A DNA stretch of 64,000 nt, taken from contig WRGR01000045.1 in the NCBI GenBank assembly GCA_009787085.1, forward strand, positions 64,075 through 128,074, in the 5' to 3' direction. A program made the translations under genes and the position numbers. Under the pieces are notes generated by a model. The model saw nothing but the letters and a program-made list of their open reading frames with translations, was not told where the DNA came from and ran no database searches. This document shows positions 9,811 to 32,571 of the stretch, one piece after another; within the stretch, counting starts at the first letter, position 1, and every line of letters begins with the position of its first letter. Source of the stretch: Actinomycetes bacterium (lineage in GTDB: Bacteria > Actinomycetota > Coriobacteriia > Coriobacteriales > UBA8131).

Positions 9811-9886
9811 GGGCCGTTAGCTCAGCTGGTAGAGCAGGGGACTCTTAATCCCAAGGTCCGGGGTTCGAGTCCCCGACGGCCCACCA
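9811..9886 (+). tRNA. tRNA-Lys (anticodon CTT)
   Basis: Acceptor GGGCCGT/ACGGCCC, D-arm AGCTCAGCTGGTAGAGC, anticodon loop CTCTTAA, T-arm CGGGG-TTCGAGT-CCCCG, encoded CCA. Confidence 0.9.
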
Positions 9887-11350: not shown

Positions 11351-11468
11351 CTAGTGGCTCCTCTCTTCTAGAGAAACGCCGGTTGATGCTGGTATGCCAA
11401 ACTCTAAGCCACGTTTGTCCATGGCGGCGTATCGCGCAAGCCGACGTAACATAATTAACCGATACTTC

Positions 11469-12557: not shown

Positions 12558-12991
12558 TAGTTGCCCCCTTCCTGTCCGTCGGTGGGTTGGTCAGCAGATT
12601 TGCTGTCACGGTAGGTCACTGTGAAAGAATTGTCGACAAAGGGCGATTGCGGGTTCATCGGGGTTGGCACGCTGACACCATAGAACTTGCCGCCGAAGTC
12701 GATGGCAATGTCTTTAATGTTCACGCCGAACAAGTCGTGCACTTCGTTTTCAAACACCAGCGCGTTAAAGAAGATGTCACTCACAGCCGGCACCGTTGCG
12801 CCAGGCTCGGCCACCAAGCGCAACTGTTCAAACTCCTTAAAATCGGAAAACGAGTAAAGCAGCTCCACGCCACCAGGCACGGTCGAGCCAGTGAGAGCCA
12901 CAAAACGCCAGCCCTTTTGCTGGTAGTCACGCGCCTTGTCATGAATCTCGGCAATCGTGGTGTTAATAAAAACTTGGGGATCCATAGCCAT
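12557..12991 (-). CDS. echD: Hydrogenase NuoC-like subunit (EchD position)
   Basis: 144 aa with the NuoC-type motif ALVFENEVHDLFGVNI. Confidence 0.7.
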   Translation of the reverse strand: MAMDPQVFINTTIAEIHDKARDYQQKGWRFVALTGSTVPGGVELLYSFSDFKEFEQLRLVAEPGATVPAVSDIFFNALVFENEVHDLFGVNIKDIAIDFGGKFYGVSVPTPMNPQSPFVDNSFTVTYRDSKSADQPTDGQEGGN

Positions 12992-12994
12992 TGC

Positions 12995-13525
12995 TCATAC
13001 CTCCAATGCTGCTTTGACGGCTTCGTCAACCCGAACGCCATCAACGATCTTGGCAGCAGCGGTGACATCAGTGACCACCGGACGCGGAGCCAGCCGGTTC
13101 TCCTTCAAGGCGCTACGGCGCTCTTCGAGGATGCCCAAGCCGGTTACCACGGCATCGATAATCGCCTCCGGGCGAATAGCACACCCCGGAGCATAAACAT
13201 CGACCGGAATGGCATTGTCAACGCCGCCCAAAGTGTTGTAGCACTCCCGGAAGATACCGCCGGTACAGGCGCAAATTCCACAGGCAATGACCACTTTGGG
13301 GTCAGGTATCTGCTCATATATCTGTTGCAGCACTTTGATGTTCTGCTCATTGACACTGCCAGTGACCAAGAAAATATCAGCATGCTTGGGATTGCCAGTG
13401 TTGATGATGCCAAAACGCTCAACATCGTACATGGGTGTCAAACAGGCCAGTACCTCGATGTCACAGCCATTGCAGCTGGAAGCATCGTAGTGCAGCAGCC
13501 AAGGGGATTTTGCAGTTGCAGTCAC
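12995..13525 (-). CDS. echC: Hydrogenase small subunit (NuoB-like, one [4Fe-4S])
   Basis: SSCNGCDIE, ACGICACTGG and APGCAIRPE, the NuoB/EchC cysteine pattern. Confidence 0.88.
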   Translation of the reverse strand: MTATAKSPWLLHYDASSCNGCDIEVLACLTPMYDVERFGIINTGNPKHADIFLVTGSVNEQNIKVLQQIYEQIPDPKVVIACGICACTGGIFRECYNTLGGVDNAIPVDVYAPGCAIRPEAIIDAVVTGLGILEERRSALKENRLAPRPVVTDVTAAAKIVDGVRVDEAVKAALEV

Positions 13526-13534
13526 TATATCCTC

Positions 13535-14440
13535 CTAACCCAACCAGTGCCAATTAAGTGAGACCAAGTTAACAGTCACGCAAACTAACGTAACTATCCA
13601 AGACCATCTTAACATGGCACCCCACTTAACGCGGGCAAAGTTGTTGTCAATGAATATCTCCAGAAAATACACTACCAAAAGGGCAACGATCGCGATCGGA
13701 ATGGCCAGCCAATTTCCCCAGACGAAGAAGATGCCAGTCCATCCCAAGAAAAGGATGTTCTCGTACCAGTGGGTAACCTCGACCAAAGCCAAGGTGCGAC
13801 CGCTCATCTCCGTGGAGATACCCTTGACCAGCTCTTGGTGGGCATGATGTGAATAGCTAAGGTCAAATGGGCTTTTACGGAACTTGATGGTCAGGATGAA
13901 GAGGAAGCCAACGAAGATTAAGGGCAGACAAGTGATCAGCGGACGATCCAGTGCGAACACGGCGCTGGTGTCAAAAACACCTGGGTTACTAACCCCGTTC
14001 AGAACGTCCATGCCCAAATAAAAGGCGACGCAAAGCATGATGACCATCGGCTCATAGCTCATAACCTGGGCAATCTCGCGCTCAGCGCCGATCTCCGCAT
14101 AAGGGGAGCGGGTCGAATAGGCCGCGATCACGAAGAACAGGCTGGAAAGCGTGAGCACAAAAACCACCAGCAGGAAGTTGCCGCCGGCAAAGAAGATGAC
14201 GCCGGAGATGATGGCAAAGACCAGAGACATCAGGATATAAAAGCCCTGATAGCTGTTGACTGTCCACTTCTGCTTGTTCCAGAGCTTCAAAACGTCATAG
14301 AAGGGCTGTAGCAGGGGCGGGCCGACACGGCTTTGCAAACGGGCGGTGATCTTGCGGTCGACACCGGCCAACAAGCCGCCCAACAATGGGGCAAAGATGG
14401 TAAAGCAGACTAACGAAATGATGAAAGATACTATAGTCAT
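13535..14440 (-). CDS. echB: Hydrogenase integral membrane subunit (NuoH/HycD-like)
   Basis: 301 aa polytopic membrane protein of NuoH-like size, sitting between the antiporter-like and small subunits. Confidence 0.8.
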   Translation of the reverse strand: MTIVSFIISLVCFTIFAPLLGGLLAGVDRKITARLQSRVGPPLLQPFYDVLKLWNKQKWTVNSYQGFYILMSLVFAIISGVIFFAGGNFLLVVFVLTLSSLFFVIAAYSTRSPYAEIGAEREIAQVMSYEPMVIMLCVAFYLGMDVLNGVSNPGVFDTSAVFALDRPLITCLPLIFVGFLFILTIKFRKSPFDLSYSHHAHQELVKGISTEMSGRTLALVEVTHWYENILFLGWTGIFFVWGNWLAIPIAIVALLVVYFLEIFIDNNFARVKWGAMLRWSWIVTLVCVTVNLVSLNWHWLG

Positions 14441-14451
14441 GTGTCAGCCTC

Positions 14452-16458
14452 CTATATCTGAATGAAGTTCAGGCCGATGGAAATCGCCGCTGCCAAGCCA
14501 ATGACCAATAAGGCGATGGTCACAATATAGGATGGCAGATAAAGGGCTTTCTCCCCGAACACTTTGTCCAAATACCAGTTACGCTGGCTAGCCTTGGCAG
14601 TCTGGGAAAGCGAGTTGGTGTACTCCCGCTCCTCGGAGTTGGTGCCAACACCAGCCAAGTAAATGCCCACTTCGGCCTTGGAGCGTGGGCGGAAGAACTG
14701 GATGGCGAAGATTGCCAGCAAAAGCAAGGCGATCACGGCCATGATGATCAGGTTGTCCAAACTGATTGCAGCAGTGAGCAGCGTTGCGGGGAAGGCCGCC
14801 TTCAGATACGGAACCACCGAGAACTCCGAGATCAGCGGGAAGAACACGCACATGGCAAAGGCTAAGAAGGCCATCAGAGCCAACGAGAACCACTCCGTCT
14901 TATGCACACCCTTCTCGGCCTCATTACTGGCGTGGGAGACAGCAATGATCTTGCCCAGCCACTTCGACCAGAACATGAAGGTCGCCGCCGATCCGAAAGC
15001 CAAGATAACCAGCAATATCATGTTGCCGGTTTCGGCCAGCGAGACAATTGTCGCCCATTTGGAGATCAGCATGCCGAAGGGGGCAACGAACATGCAAAGG
15101 ATGCCTAGGGCAGTGAAACGCGAGATGTTCGGCAGACGGTCGAACAGCTCGTCCATGCTCTCGATATCGCGGCTGCCGATATGGTGCTCGGTAGTGCCGA
15201 CGCAAAGGAAGAGCAGAGACTTGGCCGCTGCGTGGAAGATCAACAAGAAGATGGCCGCCCAAACAGCCTCCGGCGTACCAACGCCGGCGCAGGCCACAAT
15301 CAGGCCAAGGTTGGCAATGGTGGAATAGGCCAGAACCCGTTTAGCGTTGGACTGCGAAATGGCCAAGCAAGAGCAGCCCAGGAAGGTCACGCCGCCGACT
15401 AAGACCACGATCCAGCCGTTGAAGTTCACAAGTCCGGTGGCAGTCGTAATACCTAGGCAAGGAGCCAGCTTGATAAGCATGAAGACACCGGCCTTGACCA
15501 TCGTCGAGGAGTGCAGCAAGGCCGAAGTCGGGGTTGGTGCCACCATGGCACCCAAAAGCCAAGTATGGAAGGGCATCTGCGCCGCCTTGGTGAAACCAGC
15601 CAGCGCTAGGAGCATCACCGGGAGCATCACCAAGACTGACGGCCCCTGGGCGATGAGTGCGCTCAACTCCAAAGTAGGCTTAGTGCCGGCTACTGCCCCG
15701 GAGGCCAAGATCACCAAAGCCACGGAGAAGGCGATACCGCCGAGCAGGTTCATGTAAATCTGCCTGAAGGAATTGCGGATAGCCTCATCAGTGCGGGTAT
15801 AGCCGATCAAGGCAAAGGAGCAAACGGTAGTGACTTCCCAACCGGTCAACAGCCAAGTCAGATCGTTGCTCAAAACAATAATGAACATCGCCGAGAGGAA
15901 GACAAACATCAGGGCAAAGAACACCGGTCGCCTGTCCTTTTTGCCATGTTCGTCCTCGTGTTTTTGGAAGTCTACCATGTAGCCGTTGGCATAGATGCAG
16001 ATGCCGCTACCGATAATGCCGATAACCAGCACCATAATCGCCGATAACCCGTCAATGTAGAGCTGATGGCTCATGCTCTCCAGAGCGTGATGCACCCAGA
16101 AGATCTCGAGGCAAACCACGACTACACCTTGCACCAAGGCCATCAACACCGCGAGGAAACGCTTATAGATAATACCCTTGGCAATTATGTAGACGCAGCA
16201 GATGATATCGATGGCCAAGGCAATATAGCCCAGCCACTCGGCATCCTTGATCAACAACGTGTCGCTGCCACCGGTTATGTAGCGCAGCCCAAAAGCCAGC
16301 GAAGCCAAAATGATCAAGGCGGCCAACACGACCACCAAGCCACCACGCACTTTTGCGTTACGAACCAAAAGCATAATCCCGGCAGCGATCACCGGAAGGA
16401 CAATTAGAACTGCTAGGTTCAGCTGTGTTATAAAGTCCATCTGTGTTACTACGTCCAT
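14452..16458 (-). CDS. echA: Hydrogenase antiporter-like membrane subunit (NuoL/HyfB-like)
   Basis: About 668 aa with many TM helices. The ATG at 16458 lies 6 nt after GAAGGAGG. The GTG at 16464 in the ORF track abuts the RBS and is less likely. Confidence 0.85.
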   Translation of the reverse strand: MDVVTQMDFITQLNLAVLIVLPVIAAGIMLLVRNAKVRGGLVVVLAALIILASLAFGLRYITGGSDTLLIKDAEWLGYIALAIDIICCVYIIAKGIIYKRFLAVLMALVQGVVVVCLEIFWVHHALESMSHQLYIDGLSAIMVLVIGIIGSGICIYANGYMVDFQKHEDEHGKKDRRPVFFALMFVFLSAMFIIVLSNDLTWLLTGWEVTTVCSFALIGYTRTDEAIRNSFRQIYMNLLGGIAFSVALVILASGAVAGTKPTLELSALIAQGPSVLVMLPVMLLALAGFTKAAQMPFHTWLLGAMVAPTPTSALLHSSTMVKAGVFMLIKLAPCLGITTATGLVNFNGWIVVLVGGVTFLGCSCLAISQSNAKRVLAYSTIANLGLIVACAGVGTPEAVWAAIFLLIFHAAAKSLLFLCVGTTEHHIGSRDIESMDELFDRLPNISRFTALGILCMFVAPFGMLISKWATIVSLAETGNMILLVILAFGSAATFMFWSKWLGKIIAVSHASNEAEKGVHKTEWFSLALMAFLAFAMCVFFPLISEFSVVPYLKAAFPATLLTAAISLDNLIIMAVIALLLLAIFAIQFFRPRSKAEVGIYLAGVGTNSEEREYTNSLSQTAKASQRNWYLDKVFGEKALYLPSYIVTIALLVIGLAAAISIGLNFIQI

Positions 16459-17087
16459 CGACACCCTCCTTCAAAGCTATTGGTGCCCACTTCCATCTGT
16501 TTAGCAGATGTTACTGACAATTTCGATTTCACAACTTCTCCTTCCAGCAAGATAGGGCGTACACGACTATCCAGTCGTCTTGGTGAAAACCGCGCAACCG
16601 CACTGCGAGTTACAACAACACGAGCCGCGGTGACCTAAGTTGGGATTGGCTCCTTCCGCAAAACCAGCTTCGCCGCATGACCTAGAAGATGTTTCCTGCC
16701 GCCCCCGACAGGGCGCCCCTGCCAGCTTCCCTATTGCTCAAAACGGCAATAGTCTTAGGCATCTCTTCTAGCTCCTCGTCCAAGACTCCCCAGCCCTGGT
16801 TCCAATCTCCAACCCGACAACAGAATGATAACGTGCTCTAAACTGTGATATTATATCGCACCTACAGCTGGGATGCAGTTCTGAGATTTACTATAAAGTT
16901 AAGATACTTTTCCTACAAAATGTATGAGAAGACAACGGCACTAGTCGGTGGCTTCCTGGGGAAGCAGCGTAAAAGATTGCGGCTCAAGGCCGCAATGACT
17001 GTACTTCGAGCATTGATCAACACTTCCCAAGCAGCACCTGTGTTAAAATCATCGGAACAAGTGCCTGTCAAACAGCGAGGAGTCCAA

Positions 17088-17669
17088 ATGCATGACAATC
17101 ACCATGGTCTTGACCAGACATCCAACGATCACGCCCACTCGCATGGGCACGGGCATGCACATACGCATGTGCATGAACATCCGCACACCCATACACATGA
17201 ACACCCGCACGACCATCCACATGCCGACAAGCATGAACATCCCCATGAGCACACACACAGCCACCCCCATGAACACACGCATGCCCATCCACATGAACAC
17301 CCGCACGACCATCCACATGCCGACAAGCATGAACATCCCCATGAGCACACACACAGCCACCCCCATGAGCACACGCATGCCCATCCAGATGAGCATGTGT
17401 GTGCAGAGGACCATGGTCACGACCACAGCCCGAGCCACAACAGCGCCGCCAACGGCAGCAACTCAGGCTTAAAAACATTGAAGTTGCTCTCTTACATGTT
17501 GGAGCACAATACCCAGCACACTCAGGAATTATCGGAGCTCGCCAACAAACTGGATAGCCATGGATTTGCTGAAGCCGCCCAACAAATGGCCCTCAGCGTC
17601 GAGCACTATCAGAGGGGCAATGATGCCTTAACAGCAGCGCTGCGCCTAGCAGAGAGGAAAGGGGCCTGA
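17088..17669 (+). CDS. Histidine-rich metal-binding protein (CooJ/Hpn-like function inferred) with a helical C-terminal domain
   Basis: The ATG at 17088 lies 6 nt after GAGGAG. I count about 49 His in the first ~113 residues (HxH/HEHPH repeats). The C-terminal ~75 aa are non-repetitive and helical (LKLLSYMLEHNTQHTQELSELANKL). A CooT-like gene follows directly. Confidence 0.8.
   Translation: MHDNHHGLDQTSNDHAHSHGHGHAHTHVHEHPHTHTHEHPHDHPHADKHEHPHEHTHSHPHEHTHAHPHEHPHDHPHADKHEHPHEHTHSHPHEHTHAHPDEHVCAEDHGHDHSPSHNSAANGSNSGLKTLKLLSYMLEHNTQHTQELSELANKLDSHGFAEAAQQMALSVEHYQRGNDALTAALRLAERKGA
17196..17387 (+). repeat. 96 bp x2 in-frame tandem duplication inside the His-rich gene
   Basis: 17196-17291 and 17292-17387 differ at one position as I read them (catgaAcacacgc versus catgaGcacacgc). 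Each copy encodes HEHPHDHPHADKHEHPHEHTHSHPHEHTHAHP. Confidence 0.95.
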
Positions 17670-17670
17670 A

Positions 17671-17874
17671 ATGTGCCTTTCGACTATCTATTATGCCGAT
17701 GATAAAAAACATGAAGAGCCACTGGCCGAAGATGTTACCGAGGTGCGCATAAGAGACGGTTGCCTTGTTTTTACCGACCTGATCGGCGCGGACACCGAGA
17801 TAGCCGGGGATATCGAGTGTATCGATTTTGTCCGCAGCTATATCACCGTGAGAAGACCCGAGGGCACTGCCTAG
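17671..17874 (+). CDS. cooT: CooT-family nickel-binding protein (CODH maturation)
   Basis: 67 aa starting MC (Cys2). The length and pattern resemble Rhodospirillum rubrum CooT (MCMAKVVL...). The start is 1 nt after the His-rich gene's stop. Confidence 0.7.
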   Translation: MCLSTIYYADDKKHEEPLAEDVTEVRIRDGCLVFTDLIGADTEIAGDIECIDFVRSYITVRRPEGTA

Positions 17875-17883
17875 GCTTGGCCT

Positions 17884-19008
17884 TTATCCTATACCCATCA
17901 GCTCAAAGGAAAGCAGCAGGTACCATTGAGATGGGATGTTCTCGTAATCGATTTGGATCAATTGCTTGATGCGGTCCAGCCGATAAGCCAAGGTGCTACG
18001 ATGGATAAAGAGCTCGTTAGCAGTACGGGTATAGTTGATGTTGTTCTTCAGTAGACTGCAAAGGGTATTGCAAAGCTCGCTGCCGTGCTGCTGATCGTAC
18101 TTTATCAAGGTTATTACATCAGGATCGCAAATCAAGTGAGCCGGCAGCCTTTCAGTACAAAGATCCAAAAGCATCGGTCGGACTACATTTTGAAAGCTGT
18201 GGCGGCAGGCTGTCGGCTGGATCTTACTGCCAACTAATAAGGCCAGTTCAGCCTGCGTATAATAGTAACGGAAGGCTTCAAACCCCGAAAACCAGTTGGA
18301 CATCCCCGCCTTGATCGAATTGTCCTGCAAAAACTGGTTAAAAACATTATCAAAATCCGCTTCATCGCCGGTAAAGATATCGAGGTTGACGAAGGAGACA
18401 ACATTGCCTTCATAAACAAACGTGCCATCCTGTGCAAACAGCGAAACAATGCGCTCACTGATAAAACGCAGGGGATGTTCGTTGCGATTCAATGGATCGA
18501 CATGCAATTTCAAGCACCGGTAATGGTGGCTGGACAGCCAACCATGGGGATGCAGGGCACTTTCCAAATTGTAATGGGTCAACGATTGGTCAGTCATATA
18601 GCAGCTGATGGTTCGGGAAAGGCTAAGACCCTGTAGGGCGTACTCGGGCAGTGCAACGCTGGTTTGGCCAATCATACTGTACTCAGCAAAGATTTCCTGT
18701 ATCCGGTTATGGATTTTTCCGAACGGTGCATCGCTGGCAAACGACAATACCGCGTTGAAGTGTTTTGCAAATTCATCGGGCAGCGAGCCTATGACCAGCA
18801 CAGTGGAGTCATAGTTGCCTTTGGGGGTCTCGACCACCTGATTGGCCTGGACTAAGTAAAGGCAGGAGTCGACCCATTCCATCTGCTCCTCTGCCAATAA
18901 AAGAACAGAGAGGCCAAGCTGGCTACTGGGCTGGCCGACAAGCTCGAACTTGAACTCCTCGCGCAGCCTTTCCACTATCGTAGCGGCACTGATTTGCATG
19001 GGCATCAC
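17884..19008 (-). CDS. PucR/CdaR-family transcriptional regulator
   Basis: C-terminal PucR-type HTH NYTRTANELFIHRSTLAYRLDRIKQL. It is the last gene on the acs-operon strand. Confidence 0.8.
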   Translation of the reverse strand: MMPMQISAATIVERLREEFKFELVGQPSSQLGLSVLLLAEEQMEWVDSCLYLVQANQVVETPKGNYDSTVLVIGSLPDEFAKHFNAVLSFASDAPFGKIHNRIQEIFAEYSMIGQTSVALPEYALQGLSLSRTISCYMTDQSLTHYNLESALHPHGWLSSHHYRCLKLHVDPLNRNEHPLRFISERIVSLFAQDGTFVYEGNVVSFVNLDIFTGDEADFDNVFNQFLQDNSIKAGMSNWFSGFEAFRYYYTQAELALLVGSKIQPTACRHSFQNVVRPMLLDLCTERLPAHLICDPDVITLIKYDQQHGSELCNTLCSLLKNNINYTRTANELFIHRSTLAYRLDRIKQLIQIDYENIPSQWYLLLSFELMGIG

Positions 19009-19057: not shown

Positions 19058-19753
19058 TCAGCTCACTTGCTTCCGACAGTACATCAGGTGGTCAACGAGA
19101 ATACCGCCGGCTACAGCCAAGTCCTCAGCGCTAAAGGCAAATTGTAAACTGGAGTCAAAGAGCAGCACCACCGAAGCCGGGAACTCATCGTCCTCGCGCC
19201 AAAATCGTAGGCTGACCGGTAGTCCATCCAAGAGGTCAAAGCGATAGCCCAAATCACAATTGTCGTCCAAAAGTTCGCCTTGAAAACCGTTGTTGCCCTC
19301 CATAATAGCCCGTAAGCTCTCCAAGTCTTTGGAGAAGCCCTTGATCAAACGACGGCTAACCCGGCCGTTGAAGCACTGTTCATAAGTGTTAGCGCTGGGC
19401 ATATCCCGATAATGCCATTCCTTTCCGGTAGCTGGGGCAAACTGTCCCTCGCAAAGATAGCGGATCACCAAAATACGCTCGTAGTCATTACCGTCAGGAT
19501 GTCCACCGATGCTGGTCATTGTGAAGTCCGGCCAACTAGCCCGATAACCAAACCCGGCCAAGGTAAAGCAAAATTCGCGGCTGTCCGAATCGTAGCGCAA
19601 ATTAGTGCGCTCAGACATAACCAGGGGGTCAAGGCTCTGGTAGATAGGGAGATAGTATTTGAGCGCATTAGTCGTGAGATTCTGCTGCCCCGGAACAAGG
19701 TTGTAGACTCCCTTTGACTCCAAACCGCTAGCGCTGCCATTTGCAACAATCAT
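19058..19753 (-). CDS. DUF3786-like protein (paralogue 2, the most divergent)
   Basis: Shares LPVSLRFWREDDEFPASVVLLFDSSLQFAFSAEDLAV with the other two copies. Confidence 0.65.
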   Translation of the reverse strand: MIVANGSASGLESKGVYNLVPGQQNLTTNALKYYLPIYQSLDPLVMSERTNLRYDSDSREFCFTLAGFGYRASWPDFTMTSIGGHPDGNDYERILVIRYLCEGQFAPATGKEWHYRDMPSANTYEQCFNGRVSRRLIKGFSKDLESLRAIMEGNNGFQGELLDDNCDLGYRFDLLDGLPVSLRFWREDDEFPASVVLLFDSSLQFAFSAEDLAVAGGILVDHLMYCRKQVS

Positions 19754-19818
19754 AAGATTTCCTCAATTCGATACTATACCGTTTACACTGTCCCCTTTGA
19801 TGTGGGATGAGATGCTGT

Positions 19819-20442
19819 TTACCGCTCAGCCTTCTGTTGTTGGATTATCTCACATAAGCCCCGGCCGAGGCTGGTAGAGAGGAAGGCCAAACACTCGAAG
19901 TCCATGTAAAACGGCGCAGTCTCATCGTACTGCACCTGCACTTCAGCAGGAAATTCTTCATCTGGCTCAAAATATAACAGGCGCATTGGCATTTTCGGGA
20001 AAACAAGAAACTGCCAACTGTGGCCGCTCATCAGCTTGCCCTCATAGGTGCCGCCCATTGCCTCAGCAGCCGCCGCAAACACATCGTATTTGCCCTTTGA
20101 CTCCCGAAGCAGGGCATCACAGATGAACCAGTTCTCATCGTCATGACCTTCCATCACGCCAGACAAGCGCCCGATGGGCACAAAGCTTAGCTTAGGCTCA
20201 ATGCCACCCTCGGAAAGGATGTAGTGGATCACTAAGCTGCGGTCGTTGATGTGTACCGGATCACGCCCGTCGACCTGTTCAACGCCCTGATTGGTTATCA
20301 GATAGCGATGTGTCAAGAAATTTATCGACACACTGCCATCGTCATTGGTGTTCAAGCCAAGGTTTTTAGCATGGCCGACAATGTCGCAAGTAGCGAGCTG
20401 GGGCAAAAGACCAATGTATATTTGCTCATAGCCAGTGGGCAT
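19819..20442 (-). CDS. DUF3786-like protein (paralogue 3)
   Basis: FPKMPMRLLYFEPDEEFPAEVQVQYDETAPFYMDFECLAF. The N-terminus YEQIYIGLLPQLATCDIVGHAKNLGL parallels paralogue 1 (YEKNYESLRSWLADLDVEAVYQRLGL). Confidence 0.7.
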   Translation of the reverse strand: MPTGYEQIYIGLLPQLATCDIVGHAKNLGLNTNDDGSVSINFLTHRYLITNQGVEQVDGRDPVHINDRSLVIHYILSEGGIEPKLSFVPIGRLSGVMEGHDDENWFICDALLRESKGKYDVFAAAAEAMGGTYEGKLMSGHSWQFLVFPKMPMRLLYFEPDEEFPAEVQVQYDETAPFYMDFECLAFLSTSLGRGLCEIIQQQKAER

Positions 20443-20458: not shown

Positions 20459-20650
20459 TTATCCTTCTACCACTGCCGCATGATACTCACACATACCAGC
20501 ACAATCGCCGCAGCCACTGCATTTGTAGGAGTCAATCCAAGGTTTGTCAGATGGCTCTTCCCTGATGACTGCATACTTCGAACACTCCTCTTGCACCCTA
20601 CAAGACAGGCAATTGGCACAGAGCTTAGGATCAATATACACTGTCCTCAT
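20459..20650 (-). CDS. Small 2x[4Fe-4S]-type ferredoxin
   Basis: 63 aa with cysteine motifs CANCLSCRVQEEC and CSGCGDCAGMC. Confidence 0.8.
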   Translation of the reverse strand: MRTVYIDPKLCANCLSCRVQEECSKYAVIREEPSDKPWIDSYKCSGCGDCAGMCEYHAAVVEG

Positions 20651-20934
20651 TTGTAGGCTTGTGCCTTAGCAGCTTTTATCTTCTCTTCTGCGTTCTCCCT
20701 GCTAGCAGTCATCAACCTTTCATACATCTCTTCACCCAAACATTCCTTTGCCATCTTGCACCAGTTAATGCAAGAGATGACATCGTTAAAAACTACGAAC
20801 CCACAACTGGTGCAGGCCAGCTCGATATCGGTAGAAAACAACTGCACTTCCGCACCACACTCCGGGCAGGTCTTGACTTCAAGAGTCGGTGTGCCTGTGA
20901 AGTTGGCGGCTCCTGGACATCCGTTAATAGCCAT
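20647..20934 (-). CDS. Cys-rich small protein with a zinc-ribbon-like core (unknown family)
   Basis: 95 aa with motifs GCPGAANF, CPECG...CTSCG and CINWCKMAKEC. GAGGAAG lies 9 nt upstream of the ATG. Its stop overlaps the ferredoxin start (ATGA). Confidence 0.55.
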   Translation of the reverse strand: MAINGCPGAANFTGTPTLEVKTCPECGAEVQLFSTDIELACTSCGFVVFNDVISCINWCKMAKECLGEEMYERLMTASRENAEEKIKAAKAQAYK

Positions 20935-20989: not shown

Positions 20990-22909
20990 TTATCGTATTG
21001 TCTCAAACAATGAGGCATCAGTATGTGGTAAAAACAACGCAGCGCTATATTGATCCATATAACCCAGTTCAGTGGATAGATCCAAATAGGTCATCCGGTG
21101 GGCAACCTCGAAAAGAAGCTGCCGATGCCGTGCCGAAATCAATGCCATATGAGCACCACTAACCGAAGTGTTGCCAATGAAATGCACTTTGTCATGGATC
21201 AATTTCGGCAACAAACCGATAGCCATGGCATCGTCACTGTCCAGATAGCGGCCAAAACCGCCGGCAATCATCATCCCGGAAAGATCCTCAAATCCCAGCC
21301 CGACGTTTTGCAGAAGTAGATACATGGCAGAGAAAATCGCTGCTTTGGCGCGGATGATGTTTTGGATATCGTTCTCAGAAACCGCCACCCGCATATTCTC
21401 AGCGGGCTCAATTACATAGGTGGCGCTACGGCCATTGATCTCAATGGCCTTGCAAGGACGTTCGCGCTCCAACTGGCCAGCAAAGTCAATCCAGCCGCTA
21501 CGCAGCAGGTTGGCCACCAATGAGATCATGCCAGAGCCGCAGATGCCTTTAGGGGTTTGACCACCGATCACCGAATAAGTAGCCTCACCAGTCTCCGGGT
21601 CCACCGACACCCGCTCGATGGCACCCAAGGATGCTCGCATGCCCTGGTTGATGCCACCGCCCTCAAAAGCCGGTCCGGCCGAACAGGCGCATCCCATCAG
21701 AAAGTCACCATTGCCTAAGACCAGCTCGCCATTGGTACCGATATCCAAGAACAGATAGATATCGTCAGTGTTTTTAGAGAGGTCGGTGCAGAGTAGACCG
21801 GAGATGATGTCGCCACCCAGATAACTGCCTACCGAAGGCACGATCAATATCGGTGCCGCCGGGCAGATGTCAATACCCAAGTCCGCAGCAGTATACAGTG
21901 GCACCTCATAGACTGTTGGCACATAGGGATCGAGGCGAATGTATTCCGGTGGTACCCCCAACAGCAAATGCACCATGGTTGTGTTGGCAGCAACGGTCAT
22001 GTCATAGATACGCGCCGCCTGACCGCCAACTTCCTCCAACAATTCTTGAAGCAAATGATTGATGGTCTTAACAACCTTACTGCGCAGCTCTTCTAGACGA
22101 TCAGGTTTTTGAGCATAGTTGATACGGCTGATCACATCTAGGCCACATGCGATCTGGCCGTTGTAGTCTGTTTTCGATGCCACTATCCGTCCAGAAGTCA
22201 AATCGACCAGCTGTAGAGCCACTGTAGTGGTGCCGATATCCAAGGCAATGCCGAGACGCGCCGGAGCAGAAGCCTCATCAGAGGCTGATTTGGCCGGCAG
22301 CACGTCCACCACCCGAACCAAGGAACCCACAATGTGATAAGCAACTCGCAGTGCCTCATCTTCCCGAATCACTTCCGGAAGATCGCGCAAGAGCGCCAGC
22401 GGCAAATCAACATCCAACGAGCTGCCACTATCTAGGGCAGAGTCCAACGCCCCTCGCAAAGCAATAACAAAGCGGTCGTAGTCCGACCGACCGTCGCCGG
22501 CAACCGGCTGGACGGGCGTGATCTCAATCAAGCCAACCAAGGGCTGCAGATCGTCTTTGCTAGGCAAAAGTGCCGGGTCAACCAACATAATGTCTTCTGA
22601 TTGCTCGGAGAATACGCCTTTTTCGTTCTCTACATTAGAGAGCAAACGAACACGCACTTGCGTTGGATCGCTGAGCAGTGTCTTGCAAGCCAGCGCATAG
22701 CCTTCATCCAACATGTCCTTTTCCAGAAGGGGGTTATCCTCGCGGATAACCCCTCCTGAAAGCACCTGAACGATGCACTTCTTGCATATGCCCTTGCCAC
22801 CGCAAGGTATTTCCACCGCTAATCCTGCTTTGCGCGCCGCATCGAGAATGCTCTCGTTTACTTCGGCTTCAACCGTTACTCCGCTCGGCAAGAATGTAAC
22901 CGATGGCAC
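20990..22909 (-). CDS. acsV: Reductive activator of the corrinoid Fe-S protein (RACo/AcsV-like)
   Basis: N-terminal 2Fe-2S ferredoxin module (VEIPCGGKGICKKC) plus an ASKHA-type ATPase body (LGIALDIGTTTVALQ, FLDIGTNGELV). 639 aa, as in RACo. Confidence 0.85.
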   Translation of the reverse strand: MPSVTFLPSGVTVEAEVNESILDAARKAGLAVEIPCGGKGICKKCIVQVLSGGVIREDNPLLEKDMLDEGYALACKTLLSDPTQVRVRLLSNVENEKGVFSEQSEDIMLVDPALLPSKDDLQPLVGLIEITPVQPVAGDGRSDYDRFVIALRGALDSALDSGSSLDVDLPLALLRDLPEVIREDEALRVAYHIVGSLVRVVDVLPAKSASDEASAPARLGIALDIGTTTVALQLVDLTSGRIVASKTDYNGQIACGLDVISRINYAQKPDRLEELRSKVVKTINHLLQELLEEVGGQAARIYDMTVAANTTMVHLLLGVPPEYIRLDPYVPTVYEVPLYTAADLGIDICPAAPILIVPSVGSYLGGDIISGLLCTDLSKNTDDIYLFLDIGTNGELVLGNGDFLMGCACSAGPAFEGGGINQGMRASLGAIERVSVDPETGEATYSVIGGQTPKGICGSGMISLVANLLRSGWIDFAGQLERERPCKAIEINGRSATYVIEPAENMRVAVSENDIQNIIRAKAAIFSAMYLLLQNVGLGFEDLSGMMIAGGFGRYLDSDDAMAIGLLPKLIHDKVHFIGNTSVSGAHMALISARHRQLLFEVAHRMTYLDLSTELGYMDQYSAALFLPHTDASLFETIR

Positions 22910-22939: not shown

Positions 22940-24265
22940 TTACTTGGAGAGCACTGCCTTGACATAACTCTCAATGTCGCCGGCCTCTTGTGGGCCGATC
23001 AGCACTTTCCAGCCAGGCATAGCCTCTTCCAGCTCACCGCTGATCTGCGCAACATAGCCAGGGATGATGATCTCCCGTGTCTTGACTTGACCCTCCAAGT
23101 CAAAGGCTTGAGCGGCCTTGCCGATTTGCGCACCACCGAACTTACCGGCTGCCCAAGCAGTGAGAACTGACATGCCCTCACATTCTGGCAGCAGCAACCA
23201 AGCGCTAAGGCCGGCATTCTCGATTTCACCAGAAACGATGAAGTAGGTCAGCGAGAAGTTGGTGGTCACGAAGACCGGTGAATTCTCATCCGGATCCCCG
23301 ATCGGATAGACCTTCGGCTCTACCTGAATCGGCTTCTGCGGATCAGTGAAGATGTTCTGACGCAGGGTCATCAGGCAGACCAGCTGGGCAAGATCAAAGG
23401 TGGGCAGCACGACAACGCCACCGTACTTGTCAATCTCCAAGTTGGCCAGCATTGTGTCTTGCAGTATGTCACCACTGTCAATGAAGGTCAGCGTGGGATA
23501 GCCAACATCCTTGTTGCCGTCTTTCAACGCCGTACGGCGAATGATGGTGTTGAATTGCAGCCGCTGGGCAGCAGTTTTCCCACCAAGGTCAAGCAACAGG
23601 TTACCAAAACCGTCGGCCTTGAACTTTTTGGCCAAGTTGATAACATCGTCCAAACTGTCGCCGCTGACAGCCATGGTCAAACCATTGGCTTCTGCCAAGC
23701 CAAGCATCTGCGGTGCATTAGCAGCATTGACTCCGGCCAGGATGCTTTTGGTGTCCTTGACGGCAGCTGCTGCTGCCTCAGCAGCATTGGGGTTAGCGGC
23801 ATTGATAATAACCGCCTTGCCAGTGACTTCGGCAGCCTTTTTGACCAAGGCTGCAAAGGCATTGTCGTCGTCGGATTTCTGGGTGACAGCGATCGCCTCG
23901 ATGAGCAGCAGCTCACCAACCCGAATCAGCTCATAGTCCTTGACTGCTTGGATGGTTTTTTCCGCATCCGGGTCGTTGTCGTTGACGTTCACCGCAATGA
24001 TCGTTTGGTTGATGAAGGTCTTATCGTGACGATAAAGAACAGTCTCGCCACCAATCTTGAAATCGCCGACCTCGATCGTCTTTACTGGCGGCTCACTATC
24101 GGCACCGAGAATCTCCTTGGCCTCATCGGAGGCGTAAGGGCACTCCGCCAGACTGGCTTTCTTAGAAGCCAGCTTCATCGCGAAAGCAAGGCAGGTGTCA
24201 GAACCGCACTCCTTGCAGTTCGTTTTGGGCAACAGCTTTTGTATTTGAAGTCCACTTAATGCCAT
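22940..24265 (-). CDS. acsC: Corrinoid iron-sulfur protein large subunit
   Basis: N-terminal Fe-S motif LPKTNCKECGSDTCLAFAMKLA. The ATG at 24265 lies 8 nt after AGGAGG. The longer 24328 start would overlap the upstream gene. Confidence 0.9.
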   Translation of the reverse strand: MALSGLQIQKLLPKTNCKECGSDTCLAFAMKLASKKASLAECPYASDEAKEILGADSEPPVKTIEVGDFKIGGETVLYRHDKTFINQTIIAVNVNDNDPDAEKTIQAVKDYELIRVGELLLIEAIAVTQKSDDDNAFAALVKKAAEVTGKAVIINAANPNAAEAAAAAVKDTKSILAGVNAANAPQMLGLAEANGLTMAVSGDSLDDVINLAKKFKADGFGNLLLDLGGKTAAQRLQFNTIIRRTALKDGNKDVGYPTLTFIDSGDILQDTMLANLEIDKYGGVVVLPTFDLAQLVCLMTLRQNIFTDPQKPIQVEPKVYPIGDPDENSPVFVTTNFSLTYFIVSGEIENAGLSAWLLLPECEGMSVLTAWAAGKFGGAQIGKAAQAFDLEGQVKTREIIIPGYVAQISGELEEAMPGWKVLIGPQEAGDIESYVKAVLSK

Positions 24266-24281
24266 GACAACTATCCTCCTA

Positions 24282-27200
24282 TTACGCGTTCTGTTGATCG
24301 AGCATTTCGAATATTGCATTCTTGGCAACCTTGGCTGCCTCCGGATGGTACATCACCAAGATGTCGCCACCGGCTTGCAAGAGCGTCATCGCAGTGGTTA
24401 ACTCCCACATCGCAGAGCGCTTCTTGACATCGCCCCAAAGCGGGTAATCCGCCTCGGGAGCTTTGAACTCCTTGCACTTGGCACTCTCAAAGCCAGCCGT
24501 GACGATCATCGGTGCGCAAAGCATCTGGTCACCGCCAAGGCCGGTCAAACGGATACGCTCCATGACCGAATAGGTGTACTCAACACCGTAGCCGATTGAG
24601 CTGGACAGAGGATCCATGATGATCCGGTTCTGAGGCAAGCCCATGTTAGTAAGCAGAATGGCCATCTGCTTGCTGATGTTCACATCGATGGGTGCTTGGG
24701 AGACGAGCGAATGGCCATAAGCCATGGCAGCACCGGCGATGGTACGGTAGTTGTCCTGCTCAACCCAGTTCAACAACAGGTTCTCACCTTCGAAGCTCTG
24801 GGCGATAGCCTTGAACACCTCGTTGTTGGAATCAAAATGGCTGGTTCCAGTAACAATCAGGGGTACATCCACAGCCTTCAGAACCTCACCGACGAGATCC
24901 ACGGACTGCTGCGGGCTGCGGTTGCCTTTCTCAGGATGCGTGGCATCCAAGCGCACGGAGATCATGTCAGCGCCATACTTCTCCACACAGGCAGCAGCCA
25001 TAGCAGCCGGATCATTAACCAAATCTCCGTAAACCTCACGTAGAATCTCCGGGTACTTATCGGAAACCTCGTCGAAGACCTCCATGGCTAGCAGCGGTCG
25101 ATTGGGCATCTTGCCCTCGAAGAGCTGGAAGGGCATGCAGTTGTGGCCACCAACGGTATAGGTCTTGGCACGGGTGCCGCCTTCCTCCTTGGTTGCACCA
25201 AGCTTGACTTCCCAAATCTCATTCTCACAGACCTCTTTGTTCACCGGGAACGATGTGACTTCGGCGATCAGGTCAGCCGCCTTGGGCTGCGCACTGACGG
25301 AAACCGATGCACCAGCAGCAGCTGTACCGCCGGCTTCACCTAGGGACACGGACTTACCCAAGAACTTCTGGGAAAGAACCTCGATGATCGAGGCTACAAC
25401 GTCCTCAGTGACCGACGAGCGCACCTCGGTGGCCATCTGCTCACGCAGGGCCTCCATATCCGCACCGCTGAGCTCAGTTGTAGTGCCAGCGGCAGCGGCG
25501 GCAGTCTCGACCTCGGCAGCCTTCTCAGTCTTGTGCACAGCCGGAGTGTCGTCTTCTTTCTGCATGTACTCGGTCATGTCGTCCATCTCCAGAGCCGGAT
25601 GGTTGACCTTCTCCATAAAGGCACGCAGCTCCTCGGCAGTGGTGGCGATGGTCTCGTCAGCGATCTTGTCGAACATGTCCGCAACACCCTGCTCATCCAA
25701 GCGCTTCTTCATATCCTCGGCGATCGACTCTTTAAGCTCCTTGGGCATCCAAGCCAAGCGACGGAAGCCGCCCTCTGCCGAGCAGAATTTACGAGAGGTC
25801 AAGAAGACCTTGCCGATGCCGACAAAGCCCGGTGTCTGCATACCGCCGCCGACGTTACCGGCCAGTGATGAGAAGGTCATGCCGCAAGGCGTGTCGCCCA
25901 AAAACTCGCGGTTGACAACCATCACGCCGTTGACCTCCGGCACATAAGCCACGATCGCCTCAAAGCAACCGCAACTGGTCATCGGCCGATCCATGATGGA
26001 ATAGGCACAAAACTCCTCGATCGCTTTATGGCTGCTGGTGTAGACAAACTCGTTGATGCCTTCCCAGACGCCTTTGGACTCATCAAGACAAGTACCCTTG
26101 GCGATCGGTTGGTTGGGGCCGGTGGGGTCGATCTCGTGGGCGGCCTTGCCATCCAGCCAGTTATAGGCACCGCAGAGGCCAAGGCGCTCCGGTGTGATAA
26201 CACAAACGTGGTTCGGGGCAAAGCTCTGGCAGAGCAAGCAGGAGTAGAAGATGTCCACAGAGTCGTCAGTCATAGCCTCCAAGCGGCGGTTGCGCTCGTC
26301 ATAGACTTTGCGAGCAACAGCTTGGCGCTTCTCCACTTCCTCGGCATCGGTTACCAAGGTCACCTTGACCTTGTCGACGATGGCCGGGTAGTCGGCCAGC
26401 AGCTTGGCATGCAGGATCTCGCCGTAGTGGCGCATCCGCAAACCCTTGTTGTAGCCGTCCTTGGAAACACGGGTCCAAACGATGTCGCGCTGACCCATGT
26501 GCCAAATGCCCTCAGCACCGTTCACCATGTGGTGCACTTGACGCTCGAGGATCGGCTCGAAATCGACCTGCATCTTGCGACCGGCAGCCTCGACCCAGAT
26601 CGCCAAGGGCAATGCCGTACCCGGCTCGACCTCGTCGATATCCGGGCCGATCAGCTCGATCTCACCGTCCTCGATGTCTTCTGGCTCGACCATGGTGACA
26701 AACTCGAAGGCCGAGGTCTTGTTGCCGCCGAATTCGACCTGGGTGTCTTCCTTGCGGATCCGCTCGCCCTCGAAGGCCGGGCCGTAGGCCACTGGCACAG
26801 GAACGTCAACGATCTTGATCTTGCAGCCTCTGACATCCAGAGCCTTCTCCACGATGGTTTCCAGCGGCACGTTGGCAACAACATGCTCGTAGGTACAAAC
26901 GCCCGTAGGCAGGATCTCCGGAATGTTAGTGTCGGCGATGGTCGGGAAGCCGTAGTTGATGGCACCAGCAGCGGCGGCATATTTGTCCGGCGTAACCTCG
27001 CCCAACGCCAAGACAAAGGCGAAGATGCGGTCCTTGTTGTATTTCAGATGTGCCTCGAAGTCACCGGGTTTGACACCGCCGAAGGACATTGCGGCGCGGC
27101 TGGCGAAGCCGAGTGCGTAGATCAGGGCGGAGACATCGCTGCCGAAGGGCACCAAGCGGGTCTCCCAACCCAGCTGGACACCTTCTTCTTCCAGTTGCTC

Positions 27201-32518: not shown

Positions 32519-32571
32519 CAGGTCTCCTTCTCCTCTTCAGAGTGTTTCGTTTTCTTCGAAATCGATGCCGC

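What the first reader, a model, noticed from the sequence alone, without database searches (positions are those of the whole stretch)
19058..20442. Three DUF3786-like paralogues embedded in the Ech and CODH/ACS locus
Seen: ORFs 19058-19753 and 19819-20442 sit in tandem at the operon tail, and ORF 10161-10790 sits beside ech. All three share a clear C-terminal block, (L/F)P..P....(F/Y)....D(E/D)EFP(A/C).(V/I)....(D).....(F/Y)..(F/A)E.LA. Two of them also share an N-terminal YE..Y..L......D block. From memory this matches DUF3786, an uncharacterised family that tends to sit near corrinoid, methyltransferase and CODH genes in anaerobes. Three diverged copies in one locus suggest a dedicated but unknown role, perhaps in CFeSP/ACS maturation, cofactor handling or substrate-specific adaptors.
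Basis: partly seen in the sequence, partly recalled or inferred. Interest (0 to 1): 0.65.

Follow-up and report, generated by a model that had tools for sequence, protein, structure and literature searches.

The report
Uncharacterised DUF3786 genes in acetyl-CoA synthase locus
Three diverged copies of a small protein of unknown function (DUF3786) really do sit in this carbon-fixation gene island, and one of them belongs to a subfamily found almost only inside CO-dehydrogenase/acetyl-CoA-synthase gene clusters, so it is probably an unnamed helper of that enzyme system, although what it does is still unknown.

Summary
ORFs 19058-19753(-), 19819-20442(-) and 10161-10790(+) all match Pfam PF12654 (DUF3786) over their full length (E 1e-39, 4e-34, 4.5e-30). 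They are only 20-27% identical to each other.

The three copies are not equivalent. Copy "a" (19058-19753) belongs to a distinct subfamily. All 8 members sampled without regard to context lie inside CODH/ACS clusters, in three different arrangements. This subfamily also supplies the gene directly downstream of RACo/AcsV in 8 of 55 metagenomic RACo loci. Copies "b" and "c" belong to a broader subfamily in which only 8 of 74 genes are ACS-adjacent. Its neighbours show no recurrent corrinoid or methyltransferase partner. RACo is the only specific recurrent neighbour.

Copy c is convergent with ech, so it is not co-transcribed with it.

Two AlphaFold models are confident (pLDDT 88.6 and 91.6) but have no significant match in the PDB. 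The proteins are acidic, have no conserved Cys or His, and share a D-x-E-F-P...D...E motif. Some relatives carry an N-terminal AcsC-type 4-Cys Fe-S domain.

No paper characterises the family. Acetogen genome papers list a "hypothetical protein" or "orf1/orf2" after acsV.

My best reading is an accessory factor of the corrinoid Fe-S protein/RACo branch. The mechanism is inferred, not shown. These are new members of a known unknown, of moderate interest.

The parts
19058..19753 (-). DUF3786 copy a (231 aa), of the 'acs-cluster' subfamily
   Evidence: PF12654 E 1.2e-39. It scores 215 bits with the a-type profile against 156 with the b-type profile. Its best non-orthologous hits are RACo-adjacent DUF3786 proteins at 31-37% identity. 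AF2 pLDDT is 91.6.
19819..20442 (-). DUF3786 copy b (207 aa), of the broad subfamily
   Evidence: PF12654 E 3.7e-34. Orthologues at 55-63% identity occupy the same position after RACo and the Zn-ribbon gene in related Coriobacteriia contigs. AF2 pLDDT is 88.6.
10161..10790 (+). DUF3786 copy c (209 aa), a divergent member of the broad subfamily, convergent with echF
   Evidence: PF12654 E 4.5e-30. b-type profile 217 bits against a-type 54. The closest sequence in any fetched locus is only 37% identical.
20459..20650 (-). 63-aa ferredoxin-like ORF with two Cys clusters. Its ATG overlaps the stop of the Zn-ribbon gene, and it ends 16 nt before copy b.
   Evidence: Translation. Weak NCBIfam 4Fe-4S ferredoxin-type hits. 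Called as a gene with faint Fer4 hits in one public assembly (L003). ATGA overlap seen.
20647..20934 (-). 95-aa Cys-rich zinc-ribbon protein following RACo
   Evidence: Translation. Only sub-threshold zinc-ribbon Pfam hits. Homologues follow RACo or flank b-type DUF3786 in Coriobacteriia and Synergistaceae loci and in L090.
20990..22909 (-). RACo/AcsV, the ATP-dependent reductive activator of the corrinoid Fe-S protein
   Evidence: Fer2 + RACo_linker + Raco_middle + RACo_C_ter.
22940..24265 (-). AcsC, the large subunit of the corrinoid Fe-S protein, with an N-terminal PF04060 Fe-S domain
   Evidence: PF04060 + PF03599.
24282..27749 (-). AcsB fused to AcsD (1155 aa)
   Evidence: CODH_A_N + CdhC + ACS_CODH_B_C + CdhD in one ORF. 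The fusion is conserved in relatives.
27815..29800 (-). CODH (AcsA/CooS)
   Evidence: PF03063 E 2e-166.
29917..31448 (-). Two CooC/AcsF-type maturation ATPases
   Evidence: CbiA/ParA-type hits.
31451..33468 (-). Head of the operon: a PF02574 S-methyltransferase-domain protein (32572-33468) and a 355-aa protein with no Pfam family (31451-32518)
   Evidence: The pair is conserved with the CODH/ACS genes in other phyla.
17884..19008 (-). PucR/CdaR-type HTH regulator directly downstream of copy a
   Evidence: PF13556 and NCBIfam CdaR-family hits. The adjacent pair a-orthologue + PucR also occurs in relative L168, at a different place relative to the operon.
16845..17874 (+). His-rich 274-aa ORF followed by CooT, a Ni chaperone for CODH
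   Evidence: Translations. The CooT Pfam annotation comes from the gene calls.
10976..16464 (-). Ech-type membrane [NiFe] hydrogenase, six genes
   Evidence: Proton_antipo_M, NADHdh, Oxidored_q6, Complex1_30kDa, Complex1_49kDa/NiFeSe_Hases and Fer4.
9597..9883 (+). Two tRNA genes upstream of copy c. The 84-aa ORF 9736-9990 is therefore spurious.
   Evidence: Rfam RF00005, 63.7 and 69.2 bits.

Best explanation
The three genes encode small (about 205-230 aa), acidic (pI about 4.7), soluble alpha+beta proteins of the uncharacterised DUF3786 family. They have no conserved Cys or His. They share a carboxylate/aromatic motif (Tyr ... D-x-E-F-P ... D ... E) that probably forms the functional site.

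Copy a belongs to a subfamily that is a conserved but unnamed accessory gene of bacterial CODH/ACS gene clusters. Copy b is co-transcribed with RACo, a zinc-ribbon protein and a mini-ferredoxin at the tail of the acs operon. Copy c is a stand-alone divergent paralogue.

The mechanism I commit to is inferred, not shown. [quoted passage not shown] They would dock onto the AcsC-type Fe-S domain and/or hold the corrinoid while the cofactor is loaded, or while RACo reductively reactivates it. On this reading they are needed in small amounts, are dispensable in many lineages, and exist as specialised paralogues.

Shown: family membership, the subfamily split, operon position, context statistics, the Fe-S-domain fusions in relatives, and the lack of any solved structural relative.

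Inferred: the partner (CFeSP/RACo) and the activity.
For: - Family: PF12654 full-length hits.
- Subfamily: copy a is closer to RACo-adjacent DUF3786 proteins of unrelated lineages (31-37% identity, E 1e-30 to 1e-41) than to b or c.
These are RACo->DUF, AcsE->DUF as the last operon gene (followed by unrelated genes), and AcsB->DUF->CODH.
- RACo link: in 55 metagenomic RACo loci with enough downstream DNA, the next gene is DUF3786 in 8. By inference, a family with a few copies per genome would give about 0.1% by chance.
- Operon structure in the window: same strand, gaps of 16-65 nt, an ATGA start/stop overlap, SD sequences, and no intergenic terminator.
- Conservation: the tail RACo-ZnR-DUF-DUF is kept in relatives at about 60% identity.
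- Fusions: all 12 anammox DUF3786 proteins, plus P0095, P0121 and P0187, carry an N-terminal 4-Cys domain. In P0187 it is annotated PF04060, the domain at the N-terminus of AcsC.
- Transport neighbours: a CbiMQ/ABC transporter or an ECF S-component follows RACo-DUF in two loci.
- Literature: in E. limosum, cooC1-acsV-'hypothetical protein' is one operon by TSS mapping (PMC5651825). In A. woodii, acsV is followed by orf1 and orf2 of 647 and 659 bp (PMC3315566, PMC6925170).
Against: - No direct evidence of any binding or activity.
- Most acs/RACo loci lack DUF3786 (45 of 55 RACo loci with downstream DNA; 28 of 35 with ACS genes visible). It cannot be an essential part of the machinery.
- The b/c subfamily is mostly (66 of 74) in unrelated contexts, including Acidobacteriaceae MAGs, with no recurrent partner.
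- The anammox Fe-S fusions sit among unrelated housekeeping genes.
- No cobalamin riboswitch was found in the window or in 18 b-type loci.
- In the closest relatives the a-orthologue is not in the operon tail. It is divergent from the operon head, or paired with a PucR regulator upstream. That fits a regulatory role equally well.
- The a-type sample is dominated by one lineage (6 of 8 share the AcsE->DUF layout), so the counts are not independent.
- The identity of A. woodii orf1/orf2 and ELIM_c1649 as DUF3786 rests on size and position only.
Confidence: 0.45

Rival explanations
1. DUF3786 is a small-molecule or redox-state sensing domain that works with transcription factors. Copy a together with the adjacent PucR/CdaR-type regulator would control expression of the acs/ech/Ni-chaperone island. 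The other copies would be sensors for other inputs.
For: - The a-orthologue + PucR-type gene pair is kept as a unit in relative L168 although it has moved to the other end of the operon. In the window copy a is followed by PucR after 49 nt.
- One representative protein (P0069) reads as a LacI-type repressor fused to two DUF3786 domains.
- The weak, non-significant Foldseek hits are mostly ligand-binding alpha+beta folds: IclR ligand domain, GAF/PAS, SRPBCC.
- The scattered genomic contexts of the b-type fit a generic sensor module.
Against: - In relative L166 the a-orthologue has no adjacent regulator.
- In the Clostridia-type and Desulfobacterales-like clusters it is an operon-internal or terminal gene with no regulator next to it.
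- TetR, LysR and two-component genes each appear only 2-3 times among 267 neighbours.
- P0069 is a single metagenomic gene call and may be a run-through.
- All structural hits are insignificant (E >= 0.09, TM <= 0.28).
Confidence: 0.2
2. DUF3786 proteins are helpers of metal-centre assembly for CODH/ACS. They would handle Ni or Co through the conserved carboxylate cluster and act alongside CooC, CooT and His-rich chaperones, rather than acting on the corrinoid protein.
For: - Copy a and its regulator abut CooT and a His-rich ORF.
- P0197 context: CooT-CooC-RACo-DUF3786-CsoR-like-CbiM/CbiQ/ABC.
- L175: AcsB-DUF3786-CODH-CooC with overlapping start.
- L166, L168 and L004 carry CooT close by.
- Conserved D/E residues could bind a divalent cation.
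Against: - There is no conserved His or Cys, which are the usual Ni/Co ligands in CooJ, CooT, HypB and CooC.
- CooC is a very common neighbour of RACo irrespective of DUF3786 (12 of 55), so the co-occurrence may only reflect cluster membership.
- In the Desulfobacterales-like layout the gene follows AcsE, far from cooC.
Confidence: 0.12
3. Only copy a is tied to CODH/ACS. Copies b and c are generic paralogues with a function unrelated to acetyl-CoA synthesis, and they lie in this island through local duplication and rearrangement.
For: - 66 of 74 b-type genes in GTDB species genomes have no ACS gene within 8 kb.
- Their hosts include taxa not known for the Wood-Ljungdahl pathway, such as Acidobacteriaceae and Oscillospiraceae.
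- Copy c is on the opposite strand, downstream of tRNA genes, and has no orthologue above 37% identity.
- The paralogue content of the island differs between close relatives.
Against: - Copy b is tightly packed in the acs operon tail, and that position is kept at about 60% identity.
- b-type genes flank acs operons in Synergistaceae too (L015, L019, L021, L022, L023).
- An adjacency rate of 11% is still roughly ten times what a random gene would show (inference).
- RACo is the most frequent specific neighbour family.
Confidence: 0.2

Closest known systems
Pfam PF12654 (DUF3786), a domain of unknown function
   Same: All three proteins match the model over its full length, far above the gathering threshold. 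They have the typical length of about 200 aa, are single-domain, and carry the conserved D-x-E-F-P...D...E block.
   Different: Nothing differs at family level. This work adds a split into an acs-cluster subfamily (copy a) and a broad subfamily (b, c). The family has no assigned function, no NCBIfam model, no solved structure by sequence or by fold, and no paper in the searchable library that discusses it.
'Hypothetical protein' / orf1-orf2 after acsV in the carbonyl-branch clusters of Acetobacterium woodii, Eubacterium limosum and related Eubacteriaceae
   Same: Same position (directly after the RACo homologue AcsV) and same size (647 and 659 bp). They occur as one or two tandem copies and are co-transcribed with cooC1-acsV in E. 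limosum (PMC3315566, PMC6925170, PMC10625859, PMC5651825). Metagenomic gut-type clusters with the same layout do carry an a-type DUF3786 there.
   Different: I could not fetch those sequences, so their membership of DUF3786 is inferred from size and position, not tested. In the window the pair is b + a with two extra small genes before it. In the window's closest relatives the pair is b + b'.
RACo/AcsV, the ATP-dependent reductive activator of the corrinoid Fe-S protein
   Same: It is the most consistent neighbour and a probable functional partner. Both are accessory rather than catalytic components of the acetyl-CoA pathway.
   Different: The fold and domains are unrelated. RACo is a 640-aa [2Fe-2S] + ASKHA ATPase. 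DUF3786 has no nucleotide-binding or cluster-binding motif, and Foldseek does not link the two.
CODH/ACS maturation factors CooC/AcsF, CooT and CooJ
   Same: They are small accessory genes embedded in the same clusters, patchily distributed and dispensable in some lineages.
   Different: Those proteins are P-loop ATPases or Cys/His-based Ni binders. DUF3786 has no conserved Cys or His and no P-loop.
Fe-S-domain + DUF3786 fusion proteins (anammox Planctomycetota and others)
   Same: They share the DUF3786 core.
   Different: They carry an N-terminal 4-Cys domain of about 45 aa, which all three window copies lack. In the window a separate 63-aa ferredoxin-like gene precedes copy b instead.

Membership tests
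Pfam PF12654 DUF3786 | Whole-protein score above the curated gathering threshold (27 bits) | tested here: met
   136.1, 118.2 and 104.9 bits for a, b and c.
Pfam PF12654 DUF3786 | Match covers essentially the whole 176-position model as a single domain | tested here: met
   Model positions 1-175, 6-172 and 1-173 of 176.
Pfam PF12654 DUF3786 | Family-wide conserved residues (Tyr in the central helix; D-x-E-F-P; downstream D; E at the start of the C-terminal helix) | tested here: met
   a: Y99, D188, E190, F191, P192, D200, E210. b: Y74, D161, E163, F164, P165, D173, E183. c aligns identically.
acs-cluster ('a-type') DUF3786 subfamily, defined here | Scores higher with the a-type profile (A8) than with the broad profile (A4) | tested here: met
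   Copy a: 214.6 against 155.6 bits. Not met for copy b (45 against 240) or copy c (54 against 217). Caveat: copy a is itself a row of both alignments.
acs-cluster ('a-type') DUF3786 subfamily, defined here | Subfamily-invariant residues Y115, R116, Y124, F128, R131, D188, F199, E210, D211 | tested here: met
   Eight of these nine are invariant, and R116 is conserved in 99% of rows, across the 120 sequences of A8 including copy a. The Y-R ... Y..F..R block is absent from b and c.
acs-cluster ('a-type') DUF3786 subfamily, defined here | Gene lies within a CODH/ACS gene cluster | tested here: met
   Copy a lies 1.2 kb from RACo on the same strand. 8 of 8 sampled members do likewise.
Fe-S-domain + DUF3786 fusion class | N-terminal CxxCx(3-5)Cx(10-25)C Fe-S domain | tested here: not met
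   Pfam reports only PF12654 for all three window copies. The N-termini lack the motif that the 12 anammox proteins carry.
Orf1/Orf2 of the A. woodii carbonyl-branch cluster | Sequence homology to WP_014355458.1 / WP_014355459.1 | not testable with these tools
   Those sequences were not retrievable here. Only gene sizes and order are available.

The most novel reading that the evidence does not exclude
DUF3786 is a new fold that binds a corrinoid, or docks the AcsC-type [4Fe-4S] domain. [quoted passage not shown]
Probability: 0.15. Interest if true: 0.75.

Novelty: new member of a known kind. Interest (0 to 1): 0.4.

Why it matters
The Wood-Ljungdahl pathway is among the best-studied carbon-fixation routes and a platform for gas fermentation. 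Even so, a gene that recurs inside its core operon in several phyla still has no name, structure or function.

Showing that one DUF3786 subfamily is essentially confined to CODH/ACS clusters turns a vague 'hypothetical protein' into a defined candidate. It could be tested in genetically tractable acetogens. If the protein helps load or re-activate the oxygen-sensitive corrinoid protein, it could matter for heterologous expression of CODH/ACS and for the robustness of industrial acetogens. If it does not, the finding remains a routine annotation of a domain of unknown function.

Tried and rejected
- **Sequence search of the PDB.** Single proteins and a 132-sequence profile gave nothing below E 0.3.
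- **Foldseek of both confident AF2 models against the PDB.** The best hits were E 0.09-0.1 with TM <= 0.28: partial KA1/AMPK, IclR-LBD, SRPBCC and PGM domain IV. I rejected all of them as insignificant.
- **NCBIfam.** No model exists for the three proteins.
- **Conserved partner search.** I ran Pfam on 117 immediate and 150 second- and third-position neighbours of b-type genes. No family exceeded 3-4 members. BLAST clustering of neighbours gave the same picture.
- **Neighbours of anammox Fe-S-DUF3786 genes.** They are unrelated housekeeping genes: PPDK, NAD synthase, ThiF, FAD oxidase.
- **Cobalamin riboswitch test for a corrinoid link.** None in the window (only two tRNAs) and none in 18 b-type loci. 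A crude regex over all GTDB loci gave nothing upstream of a DUF3786 gene.
- **Promoter and terminator scan of 9.5-21.2 kb.** Counts were no different from shuffles, so it is uninformative.
- **Second ORFs after RACo-DUF in gut-type clusters.** I suspected divergent paralogues, but they are FchA, Fhs or an ECF S-component.
- **An apparent RACo-DUF3786 fusion in L087.** It is an out-of-frame long ORF, not a fusion.
- **The 633-aa gene after DUF3786 in L175.** I suspected RACo, but it is CODH.
- **Looking for named cultured hosts (A. woodii) through cluster look-up.** Only MAG names came back.
- **Literature searches for DUF3786, PF12654 and IPR024264.** One irrelevant paper and otherwise nothing.
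Full report
**What is in the sequence**

They translate cleanly and each matches Pfam PF12654 (DUF3786) over the whole 176-position model. The scores are 136, 118 and 105 bits against a threshold of 27 (E 1.2e-39, 3.7e-34, 4.5e-30). NCBIfam has no model for them.

The copies are old paralogues, only 20-27% identical to one another. The N-terminal YE..Y..L block is present in two of them.

Small corrections are needed.
- The 'LP..P' element is absent from copy a.
- Copy c starts at ATG 10161. The mechanical ORF starts at TTG 10005.
- Copy c lies on the strand opposite to ech, convergent with echF, just downstream of two tRNA genes at 9597-9670 and 9811-9883. It is therefore next to ech but not in the ech transcript.

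**The surroundings**

A single minus-strand gene array runs from 33468 down to about 17884, in this order.
1. A PF02574 S-methyltransferase-domain protein.
2. A 355-aa protein with no Pfam family.
3. Two CooC ATPases.
4. CODH.
5. An AcsB-AcsD fusion of 1155 aa.
6. AcsC.
7. RACo.
8. A 95-aa Cys-rich zinc-ribbon protein.
9. A 63-aa ferredoxin-like ORF.
10. DUF3786 copy b.
11. DUF3786 copy a.
12. A PucR/CdaR-type regulator.

In the tail the gaps are 16-65 nt. The ferredoxin-like ORF starts with an ATGA overlap on the preceding stop codon. Copies a and b have GAGGA Shine-Dalgarno sequences. No intergenic terminator was predicted, although that scan was no better than shuffles.

A His-rich ORF and CooT lie on the plus strand (16845-17874). 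The six ech genes follow on the minus strand (16464-10976), then copy c. The rest of the window, 36-64 kb, is housekeeping.

The window is identical to a 402-kb metagenomic contig. The closest named relatives are Coriobacteriia MAGs.

**Conservation in close relatives**

A contig with about 60% identical proteins keeps CooC-CODH-AcsBD-AcsC-RACo-ZnR-DUF-DUF. There, however, both tail genes are b-type.

[quoted passage not shown] In a second relative the a-orthologue is followed by a PucR-type regulator and CooT upstream of the operon, while the tail pair b-b' runs directly into echA.

So the island always holds several DUF3786 genes. Which paralogue sits where varies, and copy a travels with the PucR-type regulator in two of the three genomes.

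**Two subfamilies with different behaviour**

A profile search of 1.84 billion representative proteins finds 2404 clusters at E <= 1e-3, almost all stand-alone proteins of about 200 aa.

*The b-type.* A scan of one genome per GTDB species returned 79 loci, all of the b-type. Only 8 of 74 genes there have CODH, AcsB, AcsC, AcsD or RACo within 8 kb, and these are in Coriobacteriia, Synergistaceae and Adiutrix MAGs. Pfam scans of 117 immediate neighbours and 150 second- or third-position neighbours found no dominant partner. The commonest specific family was RACo, at 4 of 150. No B12-binding or methyltransferase family stood out.

*The a-type.* Copy a is much closer to DUF3786 proteins from unrelated lineages that sit next to RACo (31-37% identity, E 1e-30 to 1e-41) than to copies b or c. 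A profile of this a-type found 1563 proteins at E <= 1e-5. I looked up eight of them, chosen only for contig length or similarity. All eight are inside CODH/ACS clusters.
- One has the layout CooT-CooC-RACo-DUF.
- Six have (RACo)-AcsD-(CODH)-AcsB-AcsC-AcsE-DUF. DUF is the last gene, and different unrelated genes follow it.
- One has AcsB-DUF-CODH-CooC.

*The reverse test.* I fetched 80 metagenomic loci anchored on RACo. Ten carry a DUF3786 gene, all a-type. Nine of the ten are directly downstream of RACo. Among 55 loci with at least 900 bp downstream of RACo, the next gene is DUF3786 in 8 and CooC in 12.

The gut-type clusters read CooC-CODH-CooC-AcsB-AcsD-AcsC-AcsE-RACo-DUF3786-(Fhs)-FchA.

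These counts are not phylogenetically independent, but at least four different layouts and several phyla are involved. The a-type is also far from universal: most acs clusters in the sample lack it.

**What the proteins look like**

AlphaFold2 gives confident models for copy b (pLDDT 88.6, pTM 0.84) and copy a (pLDDT 91.6, pTM 0.86). Both show the same layout.
- N-terminal helices.
- A three-stranded beta-meander.
- Central helices.
- A three- to four-stranded antiparallel sheet.
- A long C-terminal helix.

Foldseek finds nothing significant in the PDB for either model (best E about 0.1, TM <= 0.28). Sequence and profile searches of the PDB are also empty.

The proteins are acidic (pI 4.65-4.82) and have no conserved Cys or His. 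The family-wide conserved residues are a Tyr, the D-x-E-F-P hairpin loop, an Asp at the end of the next strand, and a Glu at the start of the last helix. The a-type adds an invariant Y-R...Y..F..R block. I could not inspect model coordinates, so the idea that these residues form one site is inference from the secondary-structure map.

**Domain fusions**

All 12 anammox (Brocadia, Kuenenia, Scalindua) DUF3786 proteins in the sample carry an N-terminal 4-Cys motif. So do P0095 and P0121. P0187 has a precomputed PF04060 + PF12654 architecture. PF04060 is the domain at the N-terminus of AcsC in the window.

One metagenomic protein reads as a LacI-type repressor followed by two DUF3786 domains.

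The anammox genes have no informative neighbours.

**How it most likely works**

The position inside acs operons, and the repeated pairing with RACo, make it very likely that at least the a-type serves the CODH/ACS system. The lack of catalytic-looking Cys or His and the patchy distribution point the same way. So does the recurrent association with small Fe-S modules, which appear fused, adjacent, or as the [2Fe-2S] domain of RACo.

I commit to an accessory role in the corrinoid iron-sulfur protein branch. The protein would dock onto the AcsC-type Fe-S domain or hold the corrinoid during cofactor loading or RACo-driven reactivation. Established knowledge used here is that RACo is the ATP-dependent reductive activator of Co(II)-CFeSP (reviewed in PMC7317905, listed). 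No partner or activity has been shown for DUF3786, so this step is inference. I put the whole statement at 0.45.

The rivals are as follows.
- A sensor that works with transcription factors. This is supported by the conserved a-PucR pair and the LacI fusion.
- A helper of Ni/Fe-S centre assembly alongside CooC and CooT.
- A reading in which only copy a is tied to CODH/ACS and copies b and c are generic paralogues.

A cobalamin-riboswitch test for a corrinoid link was negative. That withholds support from a corrinoid link but does not exclude it.

**Comparison with what is known**

DUF3786 is a catalogued Pfam domain of unknown function. Full-text searches for DUF3786, PF12654 and IPR024264 found one irrelevant paper and nothing else.

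Acetogen genome papers do record the gene without naming it.
- A. woodii cluster III is cooC1-acsV-orf1-orf2-acsD-acsC-acsE-acsA-cooC2-acsB, with orf1 and orf2 of 647 and 659 bp (PMC3315566, PMC6925170).
- E. limosum has the operon cooC1-acsV-'hypothetical protein' ELIM_c1649, defined by TSS mapping (PMC5651825).
- Related Eubacteriaceae differ in whether orf2 is present (PMC10625859).

I could not fetch those sequences, so their identity as DUF3786 is inferred from size and position.

**Verdict**

The neighbourhood claim is right for one subfamily and weak for the other. The functional proposal is reasonable but untested.

These are new members of a known, uncharacterised family. What this work adds is the subfamily split and the near-exclusive link of the a-type to CODH/ACS clusters. 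I rate the interest as moderate (0.4). This is a well-defined 'known unknown' in a central pathway that is now testable in tractable acetogens, but it is not a surprising new system.

Noticed in passing
window 31451-33468 (-); whole window for the negative result: The acs operon has no AcsE-type pterin-binding methyltransferase anywhere in the 64 kb. tblastn with two AcsE proteins found nothing below E 2. Instead the operon begins with a PF02574 homocysteine-S-methyltransferase-domain protein and a 355-aa protein. The latter has no Pfam family and only a weak, far sub-threshold NCBIfam 'methionine synthase' hit (E 3.6e-7). The pair travels with CooC-CODH-AcsB in Coriobacteriia, Synergistaceae and several metagenome loci. 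It may be an alternative methyl-transfer module, or a link from CFeSP to methionine synthesis.
   Followed up: partly
window 24282-27749 (-): AcsB (acetyl-CoA synthase) and AcsD (small CFeSP subunit) are fused in one 1155-aa ORF. The fusion is conserved in relatives, and ORFs of similar length (1139-1358 aa) labelled AcsB occur in metagenome loci L088, L106, L114 and L118.
   Followed up: partly
window 16845-17874 (+): A 274-aa ORF is packed with H-x-H repeats (HAHSHGHGHAHTHVHEHPH...) and matches no Pfam or NCBIfam family. It is immediately followed by CooT. It looks like a CooJ-like His-rich nickel store or chaperone for CODH or the Ech hydrogenase.
   Followed up: no
window 20459-20650 (-): A 63-aa ferredoxin-like ORF with two Cys clusters is translationally coupled (ATGA overlap) to the zinc-ribbon gene and ends 16 nt before DUF3786 copy b. 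Only one of three public assemblies of this sequence calls it as a gene. A 63-aa Fer4 gene sits at a different place in the relative L005.
   Followed up: partly
window 20647-20934 (-): A 95-aa protein with 8 Cys (CPECG...CTSCG plus CINWCKMAKEC) and no family assignment follows RACo. Homologues follow RACo or flank b-type DUF3786 genes in Coriobacteriia, Synergistaceae and locus L090.
   Followed up: partly
window 9597-9670 and 9811-9883 (+): Two tRNA genes lie between HPPK and DUF3786 copy c. The 84-aa ORF 9736-9990 overlaps one of them and is spurious.
   Followed up: yes
loci L059-L084 (anammox Planctomycetota genomes): Every anammox DUF3786 protein in the sample (12 of 12) has an N-terminal AcsC-like 4-Cys Fe-S motif. 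The genes sit among unrelated housekeeping genes that differ between genera.
   Followed up: partly
protein P0069 (763 aa, metagenomic representative): This is an apparent LacI-type repressor (HTH + sugar-binding-like domain) fused to two tandem DUF3786 domains. It may be a real sensor fusion or a run-through gene call.
   Followed up: no
loci L169 (7001-11072) and L144 (2054-3682): In two a-type loci RACo-DUF3786 is followed by metal or vitamin uptake genes. L169 has a CsoR-like repressor plus CbiM/CbiQ/ABC, and L144 has an ECF-transporter S component.
   Followed up: no
locus L033 6361-6487 (+): A Moco/tungsten riboswitch (67.7 bits) lies about 4 kb downstream of a b-type DUF3786 gene in a Clostridia MAG. 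It is probably unrelated to that gene.
   Followed up: no
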